A DNA stretch of 64,000 nt from an uncultured Alphaproteobacteria bacterium (lineage in GTDB: Bacteria; Pseudomonadota; Alphaproteobacteria; HIMB59; GCA-002718135): contig CACMRK010000003.1 of the NCBI GenBank assembly GCA_902616075.1, positions 7,153 through 71,152 of the forward strand, read 5' to 3'. Position 1 is the stretch's first letter. The number at the start of each line of letters is the position of its first letter. Positions 13,651 through 17,501 of the stretch are shown piece after piece. Below the pieces are notes generated by a model. The model searched no databases. It saw nothing but the letters and a program-made list of their open reading frames with translations, and had not been told where the DNA came from. The translations under genes and the position numbers were made by a program.

Positions 13651-16293
13651 TTATGCAGCGTCTGAAATTATTTCATTTAAAACGTAGTTTAAAATTCCTC
13701 CAGCTTTATAATATTCCAGTTCTTTATTTGTGTCTATTCTGCATTTTAAGTTTATACTTCTACTTGCTTCAGAATTAATTTCGCAATTAAGTTCAATTCC
13801 TGGTTTTAGTTTAGACAGTCCAAATATAGATATACTTTCTTCACCTCCAATATTTAGATTCATTTTGTTTTGATTATTCATAAATTCAAGAGGTAAAACT
13901 CCCATTCCAATTAAATTTGATCTATGAATTCTTTCAAAACTCTCAGCAATTACTGCTCTTACACCTAAAAGTCTTGTACCTTTTGCTGCCCAATCTCTAG
14001 ACGAACCTGTGCCATATTCTTTTCCAGCTATTATAACTGTATCAATATTGCTGTTCATATATTCTTGTGCAGCATCATAAATGTACATTTGTTTGTTTGA
14101 GAGAAAAGATTTGGTATAACCTCCCTCAACATTATCTAAAATTAGATTCTTAATTCTTATGTTAGCAAAAGTTCCTCTCATCATAATTTCATGATTACCA
14201 CGTCTTGATCCATAAGAATTGAAGTTTTTAGAATTAATTTGTCTATTTGTTAAATAAAGACCAGCTGGACTATCTTCTTTAATACTTCCAGCAGGAGAAA
14301 TATGATCCGTTGTTACACTATCACCTAATAATACTAATATTCTTGCATTCTTTATGTCATTTAGTTCAAATTTATTTTGCGTATCAAAATAAGGTGGATG
14401 TTTTATGTAAGTACTAGCATCATTCCAATCATATGTGGTATTTTGAGTATTATTAATTGATTTCCAATTATCGTCTCCTTTATAAATTTCTTTATATCTT
14501 TGTTTAAACATTTCTGGGGTTAAACATAAGCTGAGTGTTTGATGGATTTCAGTATTTGATGGCCATAAATCTTTTAAAAATATTTCTTTACCAGATTTTG
14601 ATTTACCTATTGGATCTCTTGCAAGGTTAATATTAATATTACCTGCAATAGCGTAAGCGACAACAAGAGGGGGAGAGGCAAGAAAATTAGCTTTTACTTC
14701 TTGGTGTACTCTTCCTTCAAAGTTTCTATTACCAGATAAAACAGAACAAACAGTTAAATTATTTTTTCTAACTTCATTAGATACCCATTCATCTAAAGGT
14801 CCAGAATTGCCAATACAAGTTGTACATCCGTAGCCTACAGTGTTAAAACCAAGAATATCAAGGTATTCTGTTAATCCAGCTTTATCAAGATAATCGCTAA
14901 CAACTTTGCTTCCTGGTGCTAGACTCGTTTTAACCCAAGGTTTAACCTCTAAACCTAAATCAATTGCCTTTTTAGCCACTAACCCGGCTGCAATCATTAC
15001 GTTAGGATTGGATGTATTTGTACAACTTGTAATTGCAGCTATTACTATATCACCTGTATTTAATTTATTTTCAATTACACTTTCATTGTTATCTATCTTT
15101 TTAAATGCAGTTGGCACTTCTTTTAAAAGAATTTTATCTTGAGGCCTTTTAGGACCTGCAAGGGTAGGTTCAACGTTATCTAAATCTAATAATATTACAT
15201 CAGAATAATGAGGGGCATAGTTTTCATCTGCCCAAAGAGTTTGTTTTTTTGAATATTCTTTGACAATATTGAGATGTTCGATTTCTTTACCAGTTAATTT
15301 TAGGTAATTAATTGTTTCCTCGTCTGTTGGAAAAAATCCACAAGTCGCTCCATACTCTGGAGCCATATTAGAAATTGTTGCTCTATCAGCTAAAGATAAA
15401 TTCTTTAAACCAGTCCCATAAAATTCAACAAACTTACCAACTACACCTTTGTCTCTGAGAATTTTAGTAATAGATAAAACTAAATCAGTTGCTGTAATTC
15501 CCTCATTCAATGATCCTTTAATTTCAAAACCAATAACATCCGGAATATTCATTGAAATTGCTTGTCCTAGCATTGCTGCCTCTGCTTCTATTCCTCCAAC
15601 TCCCCAACCTAAAACGGAAAGTGCGTTAACCATTGTTGTATGACTATCTGTTCCTACAACTGAATCTGGGAATAAATAGTTTTGATTATCAATTTTCTTC
15701 AACCAAATAGTCTTAGCTATATTTTCCAAATTTACTTGATGACAAATTCCCGCTCCAGGTGGCACAAGGTAGAAATTGTCAAATGAACTTTGACCCCATT
15801 TAAGAAATTCATATCTTTCTTTATTTCTATCAAATTCTTTTCTAACGTTTTCTTTTAAAGCATTATTATCTTTATAATTATCTACCATAACAGAATGATC
15901 TATAACGAGATCTACCCTTGATAATGGGTTAATTTTTTTTGGCTCTATTCCTTTTGATTTTAATGCATTTCGCATAGCAGCAAGGTCAGCAACAGCAGGT
16001 ACACCGGTGAAGTCTTGCATTAGAACACGAGTTGGGAAAAAAGCTATTTCAATCTTTTCTTCTTTTTTATTAGGTTGTTCTAATGAAGAAAAAATTTTTG
16101 CAATCATATCTTTAGTAATATTCTCTCCATCTTCGTTTCTAAGAAGATTTTCAATTATTATTTTAATAGAAATTGGAACTTTACTAAGATCTATTGCAAA
16201 ATACTCAGCAGCTTTATTTAAATCAAAATATTTGAACTTTTGACCATTTATTTCAATTATATCTTCTGAATTGAAAGAATTTATGTTTTTCAT
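13651..16293 (-). CDS. acnA: aconitate hydratase A
   Basis: 880 aa. GTDSHTTM, ITSCTNTSNP, GCTTCIGNSG and the swivel-domain SGSSRDWAAKG motifs are all present. Confidence 0.95.
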   Translation of the reverse strand: MKNINSFNSEDIIEINGQKFKYFDLNKAAEYFAIDLSKVPISIKIIIENLLRNEDGENITKDMIAKIFSSLEQPNKKEEKIEIAFFPTRVLMQDFTGVPAVADLAAMRNALKSKGIEPKKINPLSRVDLVIDHSVMVDNYKDNNALKENVRKEFDRNKERYEFLKWGQSSFDNFYLVPPGAGICHQVNLENIAKTIWLKKIDNQNYLFPDSVVGTDSHTTMVNALSVLGWGVGGIEAEAAMLGQAISMNIPDVIGFEIKGSLNEGITATDLVLSITKILRDKGVVGKFVEFYGTGLKNLSLADRATISNMAPEYGATCGFFPTDEETINYLKLTGKEIEHLNIVKEYSKKQTLWADENYAPHYSDVILLDLDNVEPTLAGPKRPQDKILLKEVPTAFKKIDNNESVIENKLNTGDIVIAAITSCTNTSNPNVMIAAGLVAKKAIDLGLEVKPWVKTSLAPGSKVVSDYLDKAGLTEYLDILGFNTVGYGCTTCIGNSGPLDEWVSNEVRKNNLTVCSVLSGNRNFEGRVHQEVKANFLASPPLVVAYAIAGNININLARDPIGKSKSGKEIFLKDLWPSNTEIHQTLSLCLTPEMFKQRYKEIYKGDDNWKSINNTQNTTYDWNDASTYIKHPPYFDTQNKFELNDIKNARILVLLGDSVTTDHISPAGSIKEDSPAGLYLTNRQINSKNFNSYGSRRGNHEIMMRGTFANIRIKNLILDNVEGGYTKSFLSNKQMYIYDAAQEYMNSNIDTVIIAGKEYGTGSSRDWAAKGTRLLGVRAVIAESFERIHRSNLIGMGVLPLEFMNNQNKMNLNIGGEESISIFGLSKLKPGIELNCEINSEASRSINLKCRIDTNKELEYYKAGGILNYVLNEIISDAA

Positions 16294-16530
16294 GCTAAAA
16301 TCAATAAATAATTATATAAATTAAATAATATGAAGACAAATTTTTGTATAGCAAAATGTTTATTTATTATTAGATTTCTGCCAAAAAATATAAAACTAAG
16401 TTTATAATTTTTTTTTTAAGTTTTTCAAAAAATAATAAATTGAATATAAAATCAAATTAATTTTAAAATATTGGTATATTGTTGACTTTAATCGTAAGTT
16501 TTGGGAATAAATGATCAGCCTTTTATAATT

Positions 16531-16590
16531 ATCACTATGGTGATAATGGAGGGAGGTTCCTCCGGGGTAACAAAATACAAGGAGTATTTT
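16531..16590 (+). promoter_or_regulatory. structured 5' leader with SD and candidate anti-SD elements
   Basis: ATCAC-TATG-GTGAT hairpin at 16531-16544. GGAGG (16548-16552) can pair with CCTCC (16559-16563). CCTCC is also complementary to the SD AAGGAG (16579-16584), which lies 6 nt before ATG 16591. Confidence 0.3.
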
Positions 16591-16767
16591 ATGGCTAAGA
16601 AGAAAAAGAAAGCTGCTCCAAAGAAAAAGAAAAAAGCAGCTCCTAAGAAAAAGAAAAAAGCAGCTCCTAAAAAGAAAAAGAAAAAAGCTGCTCCTAAGAA
16701 AAAGAAAAAAGCAGCTCCTAAAAAGAAAAAGAAAAAAGCTGCTAAAAAGAAGAAAAAGAGAAGATAG
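16591..16767 (+). CDS. 58-aa lysine/alanine/proline repeat protein (histone H1-like / polycationic)
   Basis: ATG at 16591 is preceded by AAGGAG. The product is MAKKKKKAAP(KKKKKAAP)n...KKKKKRR and uses only M, A, K, P and R. The ORF-track start at 16501 is a TTG extension without an SD. Confidence 0.6.
   Translation: MAKKKKKAAPKKKKKAAPKKKKKAAPKKKKKKAAPKKKKKAAPKKKKKKAAKKKKKRR
16597..16760 (+). repeat. in-frame tandem repeat, 24/27-nt units (AAGAAAAAGAAAAAAGCAGCTCCT-like), about 6 copies
   Basis: Direct reading shows repeated aagaaaaagaaa(aaa)gc(a/t)gctcc(a/t)aa(g/a) units. These encode the KKKKK(K)AAP repeats. Confidence 0.85.
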
Positions 16768-16834
16768 TAATACTTCGATTTTTCAAGAAAACTTTAATTT
16801 AAAGTTTTCTTTTTCTTATCTTTTTCAAAAAGAT

Positions 16835-16860
16835 AAAACGGGGTTCTGCCCCGTTTTTTT
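16835..16860 (+). terminator. rho-independent terminator
   Basis: AAAACGGGG-TTCTG-CCCCGTTTT forms a 9-bp stem followed by a T-run to 16860. Two AT-rich perfect hairpins precede it (16786-16810 and 16816-16836). Confidence 0.7.
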
Positions 16861-16895
16861 ATTGTTTTATATCAAAAAGTAATTAGATCTTAATA

Positions 16896-17501
16896 ATGTT
16901 AATTGTTAAGGATTTATCAATAGAAAGACTAGATAAAAAAATATTTGAAAATATTAGTTTATCTCTTGCACCTGGAAATATTACTATTCTAAAAGGTAAA
17001 AATGGTTCTGGTAAAACTACCTTACTAAAGGCAATATTAAACTTAATAGAGCCCTCTTTTGGATCAATATATTGGAAAGGAAAATTGTTAAAAAAAAATT
17101 TATATGATTTCTATAATAATGTTACTTATATTTCTGATACAACATCAAGTTTAAAAAAATTAACCCTGGCAGATAATATAAATATTTGGAAAAAATTTTT
17201 TATTTCAAATATAAATGATACTCAAATTGAAATAGCATTAAAAACCTTAAAATTAGATAATTATTTAGATAAAAAAGTTGGAACATTATCTTTTGGTGAA
17301 ACTAAAAAATTAGAATTTTTAAGATTAATTATAGAAAACAAAAATGTTTGGGTTTTAGATGAACCACTTTCAAATTTAGATGATGATTCAATTGAATTAA
17401 TGAAACAAACTTTTGAAGATCATTGTGAAAAGCAAGGTTCTATAATTTTCAGTTCACACCAAAATCCAGGAATTTACGTAACAGAAGAAATGCAATTATA
17501 A
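16896..17501 (+). CDS. ccmA: heme exporter ATP-binding protein CcmA
   Basis: Walker A GKNGSGKTT, signature LSFGETKK and Walker B VWVLDEP are present. It is the first gene of the ccm operon. Confidence 0.85.
   Translation: MLIVKDLSIERLDKKIFENISLSLAPGNITILKGKNGSGKTTLLKAILNLIEPSFGSIYWKGKLLKKNLYDFYNNVTYISDTTSSLKKLTLADNINIWKKFFISNINDTQIEIALKTLKLDNYLDKKVGTLSFGETKKLEFLRLIIENKNVWVLDEPLSNLDDDSIELMKQTFEDHCEKQGSIIFSSHQNPGIYVTEEMQL

What the first reader, a model, noticed from the sequence alone, without database searches (positions are those of the whole stretch)
16591..16767. 58-aa polycationic protein built from only five amino acids by an in-frame tandem repeat
The ATG at 16591 has a good SD (AAGGAG, 6-nt spacing). 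The product is MAKKKKKAAP KKKKKAAP KKKKKAAP KKKKKKAAP KKKKKAAP KKKKKKAAKKKKKRR. It is encoded by 24/27-nt DNA repeats with synonymous variation (gca/gct, cca/cct, aag/aaa), which argues for selection on the peptide. The composition mimics the eukaryotic histone H1 C-terminal tail and the bacterial H1-like proteins (Chlamydia Hc, Bordetella BpH1, Pseudomonas AlgP repeats). The gene is monocistronic. It has its own long upstream spacer and a strong terminator, consistent with high or regulated expression. Possible roles include nucleoid compaction in a very small cell, RNA or polyphosphate binding, or ribosome association. The repeat number is likely to vary between strains.
Basis: partly seen in the sequence, partly recalled or inferred. 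Interest (0 to 1): 0.6.

Follow-up and report, generated by a model that had tools for sequence, protein, structure and literature searches.

The report
Unannotated polylysine mini-protein of AEGEAN-169 bacteria
This is a real, conserved gene for a 58-residue protein made almost only of lysine (charge about +39) in an abundant group of ocean bacteria; gene catalogues miss it, and it most likely coats and compacts DNA or RNA the way a histone H1 tail does, though nobody has tested this.

Summary
The ORF at 16591-16767 (+) has AAGGAG 6 nt upstream and encodes MAKKKKKAAP...KKRR from M, A, K, P and R only, through 24/27/51-nt tandem repeats.

It is a genuine gene. About 190 loci from genomes and metagenomes keep the SD, the ATG and an intact frame, apart from one frameshifted contig. 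Length varies from 40 to 144 aa, always in multiples of three bases.

Among 18 equal-length alleles, 19 of 20 variable sites fall at codon position 3. AAG makes up 43% of the Lys codons, against 12.6% genome-wide. This keeps A-runs at 6 or fewer, where about 18 would be expected.

The gene always lies just upstream of ccmA. The host belongs to the order HIMB59 (AEGEAN-169, formerly SAR11 clade V), not SAR11 proper. A sample of 400 other alphaproteobacteria gave no convincing relative.

The protein is absent from a collection of 15 billion predicted proteins. It hits no Pfam, NCBIfam or PDB entry.

The most likely function is a disordered polycation that binds the nucleoid, or nucleic acids generally, like the H1 tail, Hc2 or protamine. 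This is inferred from composition and is not shown.

Earlier reports of this scan had already found the same gene in other genomes.

The parts
16482..16487 (+). Invariant TTGACT (-35-like), inside a conserved block TATATTGTTGACTTTnnnCGTAAGTTTTGGGAA. Probably the -35 of the promoter whose transcript includes both leader hairpins. The inferred start is near 16517.
   Evidence: Alignment of 42 distinct upstream regions. The same TGTTGACTT is present in the sister family. The variable stretch 16511-16516 sits where a -10-to-+1 segment would lie. The transcription start was not measured.
16501..16529 (+). Second sigma-70-like match, TTGGGA-17-TATAAT (10 of 12).
   Evidence: The hexamers are kept as TTGnnA and TATnnT in other genera. 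A start from this promoter would fall inside hairpin 1, so which promoter is used remains open.
16528..16547 (+). Leader hairpin 1 (ATTATCAC / GTGATAAT, loop TATG).
   Evidence: Five of 9 pairs show changes on both sides, and many alternate between U-A and U-G or A-U and G-U. That is an RNA signature of the + strand.
16548..16563 (+). Leader hairpin 2 (GGAGGG / UCCUCC, an SD-like arm paired with an anti-SD-like arm).
   Evidence: 96.9% of cells paired. One genus replaces it with GUAGA/UCUAC, and the sister family with UUACUAAUUAAUUAGUAA, at the same place.
16572..16590 (+). Third small stem (AAAAUAC / GUAUUUU) that presents the Shine-Dalgarno AAGGAG (16579-16584) in its loop.
   Evidence: for the fold. 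AAGGAG is invariant in all loci. Only about 51 ORF starts in the 1.05-Mb assembly have this SD at this spacing, among them cspA-like, rplL, rpoA/B, acpP, HU, ndk and gap.
16591..16767 (+). Coding sequence: 58 aa, net charge about +39, (K5-6 A A P) units, N-terminus MAKKKKK, C-terminus KKKRR. Stop TAG is followed by TAA.
16785..16811 (+). 3'-UTR hairpin A (AAGAAAACUUU / AAAGUUUUCUU) followed by a U-rich tract. It could act as a weak first terminator.
   Evidence: z = -5.6 for the 3' UTR. Compensatory CTTT/AAAG to CTTA/TAAG changes occur in other genera.
16805..16818 (+). Invariant pyrimidine 14-mer TTTTCTTTTTCTTA, the exact antisense of the Lys-codon unit TAAGAAAAAGAAAA in the ORF.
   Evidence: Present in 45 of 47 distinct loci of the family, and each of those ORFs holds at least one exact complement, at varying distance from the stop. 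Its function is unexplained.
16816..16836 (+). 3'-UTR hairpin B (UAUCUUUUU / AAAAAGAUA).
   Evidence: It is poorly conserved in sequence, but a hairpin is present at this place in other genera.
16835..16865 (+). Intrinsic terminator (CGGGG / CCCCG core plus T-run).
   Evidence: It is conserved in both families.
16896..17501 (+). ccmA (ABC ATPase), the first gene of the ccm operon. It is the constant downstream neighbour of the small gene across the order.
13651..16293 (-). acnA (aconitase), the divergent upstream neighbour in this family only.
   Evidence: In the sister family a helicase-like gene takes this position.

Best explanation
The ORF is a genuine, efficiently translated gene. It is specific to the marine alphaproteobacterial order HIMB59 (AEGEAN-169).

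Its product has no fold. It is a flexible polycation with about 0.6-0.7 positive charges per residue, arranged as runs of 3-7 Lys/Arg separated by AA or AAP.

The most likely role is to bind polyanionic nucleic acid non-specifically through charge, chiefly the very AT-rich chromosome. It would neutralise phosphate charge and compact or bridge DNA, as the C-terminal tail of histone H1, chlamydial Hc2 and protamines do.

Shown here: the gene is real. Selection acts on charge and on an intact frame, but not on exact length. The codons are chosen to break poly(A) runs. The expression signals are strong and conserved.

Inferred, not shown: that the protein is abundant, that its main ligand is DNA rather than RNA, and that it compacts the nucleoid.
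For: Frame, start and stop:
- All 63 distinct ORF DNAs from 115 genome loci are intact.
- 52 of 53 complete metagenomic copies are intact.
- Lengths run from 40 to 144 aa, with indels always in multiples of 3.

Substitution pattern:
- In 18 equal-length alleles the variable sites by codon position are 1/0/19. Synonymous to non-synonymous is 18:2 in this frame, against 1:18 and 0:19 in the other + frames.
- Across 97 distinct proteins only K, A, P, R, M and rare T/V/S occur. K and R interchange freely, and there are no acidic or aromatic residues.

Codon choice:
- AAG is 16 of 37 Lys codons, against 12.6% genome-wide and 12.4% in other strong-SD genes.
- The longest A-run is 6. In 20,000 synonymous simulations the mean was 17.9 and the minimum 12.

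Expression signals:
- An invariant AAGGAG SD, of a class found at about 51 starts in the assembly, many of them classic high-expression genes.
- A conserved promoter block and a structured leader with covariation.
- A conserved terminator.

Distribution:
- 77 of 115 genomes of the window's family and 43 of 71 of the sister family carry it, including a closed 1.41-Mb genome. It lies next to ccmA in all family loci checked and in three sister-family loci checked, including the closed genome.

The hypervariable length fits a charge-based, non-stereospecific ligand and argues against a fixed structural role.
Against: - There is no expression, proteomic or binding evidence.
- No sequence homology to any characterised DNA-binding protein was found. 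The functional assignment therefore rests on composition alone.
- HU and IHF are present in these genomes, so the protein is not needed to fill an obvious gap.
- A polycation like this would bind RNA, ribosomes or anionic envelope polymers just as readily.
- The constant linkage to ccmA is not explained by a nucleoid role.
Confidence: 0.55

Rival explanations
1. The polycation works mainly on RNA or the ribosome. It would be a loosely bound ribosome- or mRNA-associated counter-ion or chaperone, a peptide substitute for polyamines or Mg2+, rather than a chromosome protein.
For: The same charge argument applies. The SD class is shared with translation and RNA-related genes. Small, very basic proteins are typical ribosome accessories (established knowledge: bS21, bL34, bS22, Thx).
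Against: Length varies 3.6-fold (40-144 aa) and the sequence is pure low complexity, unlike any stoichiometric ribosomal protein. bS21, bL34 and bL36 are all present, so none of these three small basic ribosomal proteins is missing. No NCBIfam ribosomal model matches.
Confidence: 0.2
2. The ORF is chiefly a regulatory device for the ccm operon. Under this view it is a translated leader whose Lys-rich translation, or whose strong promoter plus leaky terminator, sets cytochrome c maturation gene expression, and the peptide itself is unimportant.
For: The small gene is the constant 5' neighbour of ccmA in both families, although the other neighbour differs. No promoter-like site lies between the terminator and ccmA in the window. 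In the sister family the terminator T-run abuts the ccmA ATG. The Rfam E-value scan gave only sub-threshold leader-like hits.
Against: K and R (AAA and AGA) interchange freely while charge is kept. That is selection on the product, not on Lys-codon sensing. Poly(A) runs, which would stall or slide ribosomes, are avoided rather than used. The stop codon is 18 nt before the first hairpin, and no antiterminator alternative to the GC terminator is evident. There is no physiological link between lysine and haem export. Driving ccm by read-through is compatible with the main explanation.
Confidence: 0.07
3. It is not a + strand protein gene. It would be either a non-coding purine-rich DNA/RNA repeat, or the antisense F/L/A/G-rich frame would be the coding one.
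For: The antisense frame is open in 143 of 144 distinct alleles, and most substitutions are silent or F/L there too (14:5). + frame 2 is also open in 127 of 144. Gene callers do not call the ORF.
Against: The antisense frame has no ATG, GTG or TTG in the window, and a start codon in its first half in only 5 of the 143 alleles where it is open. The + frame has an invariant SD and ATG, and in one clade a TAA directly before the ATG. Promoter, terminator and leader G.U pairs all point to the + strand. A non-coding repeat would not keep every one of about 190 copies in frame while varying in length.
Confidence: 0.03
4. The peptide binds another polyanion (polyphosphate granules, or LPS/outer-membrane surfaces), or is an exported antimicrobial polycation.
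For: Charge alone would allow it. An ABC exporter pair lies next door.
Against: PPK2 was found in none of 5 genomes and PPK1 in 1 of 5, including none in the closed genome that has the gene. There is no signal peptide or leader. The neighbouring ABC genes look like the start of a cytochrome c maturation operon: one search confirms only the ABC ATPase domain of ccmA, and ccmB/C and the full ccmA-H set are read from ORF translations and an untested scan note. No PADLOC or PHROG search was run. No viral relatives were found.
Confidence: 0.05

Closest known systems
Chlamydial histone H1-like protein Hc2 (HctB; Pfam PF07382)
   Same: Both are bacterial proteins that are essentially all Lys/Ala-rich low-complexity repeat with no folded domain. 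In both, the repeat number varies between strains. Hc2 condenses the nucleoid (established knowledge).
   Different: No HMM match: PF07382 does not hit any protein of this order. Ours is 3-4 times shorter, richer in Lys (64%) and has Pro in every unit. It occurs in a free-living planktonic bacterium with no known developmental cycle. The genomic context differs (ccmA).
C-terminal domain of eukaryotic linker histone H1, and the tail-only H1 of trypanosomatids
   Same: K/A/P composition, (S/A)PKK-like units and intrinsic disorder. H1 tails neutralise charge and condense AT-rich DNA (established knowledge).
   Different: There is no winged-helix globular domain (no PF00538 hit) and no detectable homology. 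Charge density is higher than the roughly 40% Lys of H1 tails.
KPAA/AAKP/PAKKA-repeat tails of Pseudomonas AlgP and PhaF, mycobacterial HupB/Hlp and Deinococcus HU
   Same: The same residue alphabet and short-period repeats, which bind DNA non-specifically (established knowledge).
   Different: Those are appendages of folded domains. Here the repeat is the whole protein, and HU/IHF are encoded separately without it.
Protamines and Coxiella ScvA (small basic DNA-condensing peptides)
   Same: Size (30-60 aa), extreme positive charge, no fold, and a presumed role as a DNA counter-ion in a very small compartment.
   Different: Those are Arg-rich. This one is Lys-rich, as expected at 28.6% GC, and it is repeat-built with variable length.
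143-aa stand-alone K/A/P/T-repeat protein of another alphaproteobacterial family (loci L143, L144)
   Same: Starts with MA, has AAPKRK/AAKKK units, ends with ARKRR and is a stand-alone ORF.
   Different: Different context (next to gatB), about 50% GC, and only a weak sub-threshold PF07382 match. Common descent cannot be told from convergence at this complexity.

Membership tests
Linker histone H1/H5 (Pfam PF00538) | Winged-helix globular domain | tested here: not met
   No Pfam match at E <= 1. All 58 residues are low-complexity repeat.
Linker histone H1/H5 (Pfam PF00538) | Lys/Ala/Pro-rich disordered tail | tested here: met
   Composition is 64% K, 22% A, 9% P. This is a resemblance only.
Chlamydial Hc2 (PF07382) and Hc1 (PF07432) | Profile match above the curated cut-off | tested here: not met
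   No hit for the 58-, 81- or 144-aa forms at E <= 10.
Chlamydial Hc2 (PF07382) | Repeat-built Lys/Ala protein with strain-variable repeat number | tested here: met
   40-144 aa among 97 distinct proteins.
Chlamydial Hc2 / H1-like nucleoid proteins | Binds and condenses DNA | not testable with these tools
   Needs peptide-DNA assays or expression in a laboratory E. coli strain.
HU/IHF with Lys-rich tails (PF00216) | HU fold | tested here: not met
   HU/IHF genes lie elsewhere in the genome. The small protein has no such domain.
Bacterial ribosomal proteins (NCBIfam models) | Match to a ribosomal protein model; fixed length | tested here: not met
   No NCBIfam hit. Length is hypervariable. bS21, bL34 and bL36 are present separately.
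Attenuator leader peptides | Regulatory codons conserved as codons; terminator and antiterminator overlapping the ORF end | tested here: not met
   Lys codons are freely replaced by Arg codons. The stop is 18 nt before the first hairpin, and no alternative pairing disrupts the GC terminator.
Known RNA families (Rfam 15) for the leader and 3' UTR | Covariance-model match at gathering score | tested here: not met
   Only a tRNA in the window reaches threshold. All matches over 16250-16950 are sub-threshold.

The most novel reading that the evidence does not exclude
The peptide is one of the most abundant proteins of AEGEAN-169 cells and their principal DNA counter-ion, in effect a bacterial protamine. 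It would have stayed invisible because gene callers skip it, assemblers break on it and trypsin destroys it. Its output would be throttled in cis by the structured leader and by the invariant 3'-UTR pyrimidine 14-mer that is antisense to its own Lys-codon repeats. Read-through of its terminator would feed the ccm operon.
Probability: 0.25. Interest if true: 0.72.

Novelty: new variant of a known kind. Interest (0 to 1): 0.52.

Why it matters
AEGEAN-169/HIMB59 bacteria are widespread in the ocean (PMC10308909, PMC8692485). A conserved gene in them with strong expression signals is missing from a 15-billion-protein catalogue.

If the product is a major nucleoid or RNA counter-ion, models of chromosome packing and charge balance in the smallest free-living cells lack a component.

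The case also shows a systematic blind spot. Low-complexity polycation genes are skipped by gene callers. They break assemblies: 27 of 80 contigs end inside this gene. They are also invisible to tryptic proteomics.

The avoidance of poly(A) runs in this gene looks like a natural example of selection against ribosome or polymerase slippage on Lys codons. That mechanism is inferred, not shown.

Two cultured strains carry the long form, so the idea can be tested.

Tried and rejected
- Homology searches gave nothing. These covered Pfam, NCBIfam, PDB sequences, the 5.8-billion cluster word search (only unrelated K/A tails and one chimeric fragment), the full HMMER scan of 1.84 billion representatives (three unrelated repeat proteins) and viral contigs.
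- Exact look-up of 13 alleles and of longer alternative starts: none is in the collection.
- Longer N-terminal start (in-frame ATG at 16546, TTG at 16501): rejected. It is not conserved, and one clade has TAA directly before the ATG.
- Antisense ORF and other + frames: rejected on start codons and signals, not on substitution pattern.
- Replacement of a missing ribosomal protein: rejected for bS21, bL34 and bL36.
- Polyphosphate partner: disfavoured.
- AAG enrichment as general expression codon bias: rejected.
- Consensus folding of the 3' UTR failed on indels, so the hairpins there rest on single-sequence folds and inspection by eye.
- A fixed long-range partner for the 3'-UTR 14-mer was not found. 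The complement sits at varying distances from the stop.
- No structure prediction was run. A 58-residue K/A/P repeat has no fold to compare.

Full report
**1. The observation**

Reading 16200-17100 shows AAGGAG at 16579-16584, six bases, then ATG at 16591. An open frame runs to TAG at 16765-16767, followed in frame by TAA. The product is MAKKKKKAAPKKKKKAAPKKKKKAAPKKKKKKAAPKKKKKAAPKKKKKKAAKKKKKRR. It has 37 K, 13 A, 5 P, 2 R and 1 M.

Tandem Repeats Finder gives periods of 24, 27 and 51 nt with scores of 186-242. The gene follows a 297-nt spacer from the divergent aconitase gene (13651-16293, minus strand; Pfam Aconitase 1.7e-163). It precedes a GC-stem terminator at 16835-16857 and then ccmA at 16896 (ABC_tran), followed by ORFs I read as ccmB and ccmC from their translations. 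The description is correct.

**2. Is it a gene?**

*Conservation in genomes.* A six-frame search of relatives found the same ORF in 15 of 24 genomes of the genus. A profile search found it in 77 of 115 genomes of the family. Every match lacked internal stops. All genome loci lie between acnA and ccmA/ccmB, even where CcmA identity has fallen to 41-50%.

Across 115 loci that carry the leader and the ATG, all 63 distinct ORF DNAs are intact. The only exception runs off a contig end.

*Conservation in metagenomes.* A metagenome scan with the leader as pattern returned 80 contigs. Of these, 53 hold a complete copy. Fifty-two are intact K/A/P(R,T,S) proteins of 44-92 aa. One, a GOS read-level contig, is frameshifted near the end. 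Twenty-seven contigs simply stop inside the repeat. Assembly breakage at the repeat probably accounts for much of the roughly 30% of draft genomes in which the gene was not found.

*Substitution pattern.* Among 18 distinct 58-aa alleles, the variable columns by codon position are 1/0/19. Synonymous to non-synonymous is 18:2 in frame 1, against 1:18 and 0:19 in the other two + frames.

*A caveat I found.* The antisense frame reading FFFFLGAAFFFF is open in 143 of 144 alleles. AAA/AAG and AAA/AGA changes are silent or F/L there as well (14:5). The substitution pattern therefore does not by itself choose the strand.

Four things do choose it:
- the invariant SD and ATG;
- a TAA directly before the ATG in one clade;
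- the absence of any ATG, GTG or TTG on the antisense frame in the window;
- the orientation of promoter, terminator and leader hairpins, whose pairs alternate between U-A and U-G or A-U and G-U on the + strand.

**3. Codon choice**

The assembly has 28.6% GC and uses AAG for 12.6% of Lys codons. Genes with the same strong SD use it for 12.4%. The small gene uses AAG for 16 of 37 Lys codons, and 47% across all alleles.

Its longest A-run is 6. In 20,000 synonymous re-codings with genome frequencies, the mean longest run was 17.9 and never fell below 12. This is specific selection against poly(A).

It fits a sequence that has to be transcribed and translated accurately. Slippage on A-runs is established knowledge; its role here is inferred.

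**4. Protein properties across the family**

Ninety-seven distinct proteins range from 40 to 144 aa, with charge from +26 to +79 and 0.52-0.68 charges per residue. Basic runs are 3-7 residues long. Spacers are AAP (598 times) or AA (210 times).

The N-terminus is MAKKKK or MAVKKK. The C-terminus always ends in Arg-rich KKRRR, KKKRR or SRKRR. No acidic, aromatic or large hydrophobic residue occurs.

K and R interchange freely. Selection therefore acts on charge and spacing, and only loosely on length.

**5. Host and distribution**

Relatives found through CcmB are GORG single-cell genomes labelled 'uncultured Alphaproteobacteria AG-...', plus 'Pelagibacteraceae bacterium AG-337-I02'. The literature equates AG-337-I02 with order HIMB59, AEGEAN-169 and former SAR11 clade V (PMC8692485; PMC10308909). 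The order holds only 187 species genomes in two families, which does not fit Pelagibacterales.

The sister family, which includes a closed 1,410,127-bp genome, has longer versions of 67-144 aa (AAKKKAAPKKRK units) in 43 of 71 genomes. In the three sister-family loci whose neighbours I examined (L057, L081 and L139, the closed genome), the gene again lies directly upstream of an ABC-ATPase gene that I read as ccmA. In L081 and L139 the upstream neighbour is a helicase-like gene instead of acnA.

A 400-genome sample of the class gave no hit outside the order with the family profile. With the long form as query it gave only weak hits. These are mostly Lys/Ala tails of larger proteins, plus one stand-alone 143-aa K/A/P/T protein next to gatB in another family. 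At most three genomes per family were sampled, so absence from SAR11 proper is not established.

**6. Annotation status**

None of 13 exact alleles or alternative-start versions is in the 15-billion-protein collection. A full HMMER pass over 1.84 billion representatives found only three unrelated repeat proteins. Pfam, NCBIfam and PDB give nothing. The gene is effectively uncalled.

**7. The transcript**

*Upstream region.* The upstream 110 nt are highly conserved:
- an invariant GTTGACTTT;
- a block CGTAAGTTTTGGGAA;
- a variable 5-6 nt;
- then AGCCUUUUAU and two hairpins.

*Hairpin support.* Counting pairs on 43 distinct leaders gives 94% paired cells, against 44-67% when the partners are slid by one to three columns. 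Seven pairs show changes on both sides, and no shuffle in 500 reached the observed values. One genus and the sister family replace hairpin 2 (GGAGG/CCUCC) with unrelated hairpins at the same place.

*Transcription start.* The hairpins are therefore RNA features, and the start should lie upstream of 16528, near 16517 (inferred). The better consensus match, TTGGGA-17-TATAAT at 16501-16529, would start inside hairpin 1, so promoter usage remains open.

*SD and overall fold.* The SD sits in the loop of a third small stem. The whole mRNA folds with z = -5.1.

*Downstream.* Hairpin A plus a U-tract, hairpin B and the GC terminator follow.

*ccmA transcription.* No promoter-like site separates the terminator from ccmA. 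In the sister family the T-run touches the ccmA ATG, and the terminator loop reads TTATAAT. ccm transcription probably depends on read-through, or on a -10 element embedded in the terminator. This is inferred.

**8. Function**

*What the data support.* The product is a disordered polycation under selection for charge, made from a strongly signalled gene. The SD class is rare, at about 51 starts in 1.05 Mb. It is shared with cspA-like, rplL, rpoA/B, acpP, HU, ndk and gap genes, identified by eye from their N-terminal sequences.

*Best reading.* By analogy with H1 tails, Hc2, the AlgP, PhaF and HupB tails, and protamines (established knowledge), the best reading is non-specific nucleic-acid binding with charge neutralisation and compaction. 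The chromosome is the most likely main ligand. My confidence is about 0.55 for the DNA reading and about 0.8 for 'binds nucleic acid'.

*Tests of the rivals:*
- HU and IHF are present, so the protein is an addition to the usual set and not a replacement.
- bS21, bL34 and bL36 are present. Together with the 3.6-fold length range, this argues against a stoichiometric ribosomal role.
- PPK2 is absent and PPK1 is present in 1 of 5 genomes, which argues against polyphosphate as the main ligand.
- K/R exchange and poly(A) avoidance argue against a Lys-sensing leader peptide.

**9. Novelty and earlier reports**

Lys/Ala/Pro-rich H1-like bacterial proteins are a known kind. This one is a minimal tail-only form with no detectable homology to them. 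It is specific to one order, uncalled by annotation, hypervariable in length and fixed next to ccmA. I rate it a new variant of a known kind.

Earlier reports of this scan described the same gene in other genomes and reached similar conclusions. They labelled the host SAR11. My evidence places it in HIMB59/AEGEAN-169.

- the long form in the sister family, including one closed 1.41-Mb genome;
- the population-level test of frame integrity in metagenomes;
- the antisense-frame caveat;
- the covariation counts for the leader hairpins;
- the tests of the rival explanations.

Noticed in passing
window 16805-16818: The pyrimidine 14-mer TTTTCTTTTTCTTA in the 3' UTR is invariant in 45 of 47 distinct loci across several genera. 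It is the exact antisense of TAAGAAAAAGAAAA, which occurs at least once in every one of those ORFs. The minimum-free-energy fold pairs this tract with the coding repeats. Possible readings are cis control of translation or stability, or merely the 3' arm and U-tract of a weak first terminator.
   Followed up: partly
L139 1863-1898 and L081 1765-1793 (sister family): The terminator after the small gene has a 7-nt loop reading TTATAAT. Its T-run runs straight into the ccmA ATG, leaving no room for a separate promoter or Shine-Dalgarno. ccmA may be fed by read-through, or from a -10 element embedded in the terminator loop.
   Followed up: partly
L152-L231 (metagenome contigs): 27 of 80 contigs that carry the leader end inside the repeat ORF. 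Several single-cell genome contigs do the same (L001, L004, L009, L037, L041). Assemblers break on this gene, which inflates its apparent absence in draft genomes.
   Followed up: yes
window 16476-16510: The block TATATTGTTGACTTTnnnCGTAAGTTTTGGGAATAAA is almost invariant across the family. That is more than a -35/-10 pair needs. ACTTnnnnnnnAAGT is an inverted repeat with a variable centre, so it may be a regulator site or a further RNA stem if transcription starts further upstream.
   Followed up: no
window 16501-16590: In-frame TTG (16501) and ATG (16537, 16546) could extend the protein by 15-30 non-basic residues in this genus. Other clades lack them or have TAA just before the ATG, so the extension is probably not made.
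   Followed up: yes
L143 1510-1941 (-) and L144: Another alphaproteobacterial family (3.7-Mb genomes) has a stand-alone 143-aa protein, MATRPKAKKKAAPKRKAAKKK...APARKRR, downstream of gatB. It has the same start and end style as the sister-family form, and only a sub-threshold PF07382 (HC2) match.
   Followed up: partly
L275, L273, L146, L149: Lys/Ala/Pro-rich tails are attached to larger, apparently folded proteins in other alphaproteobacteria. By eye these look like an RsfS-like protein, a bL21-like protein and a trigger-factor-like protein. Such polycationic appendages recur widely.
   Followed up: no
window 13651-16293 versus scan note e1-4093902: In this family the polylysine gene is the divergent neighbour of aconitase. 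Another report of this scan describes an aconitase in Ignavibacteria that carries an H1-like Lys/Ala tail. This is probably coincidence, since the sister family has a different upstream neighbour.
   Followed up: no
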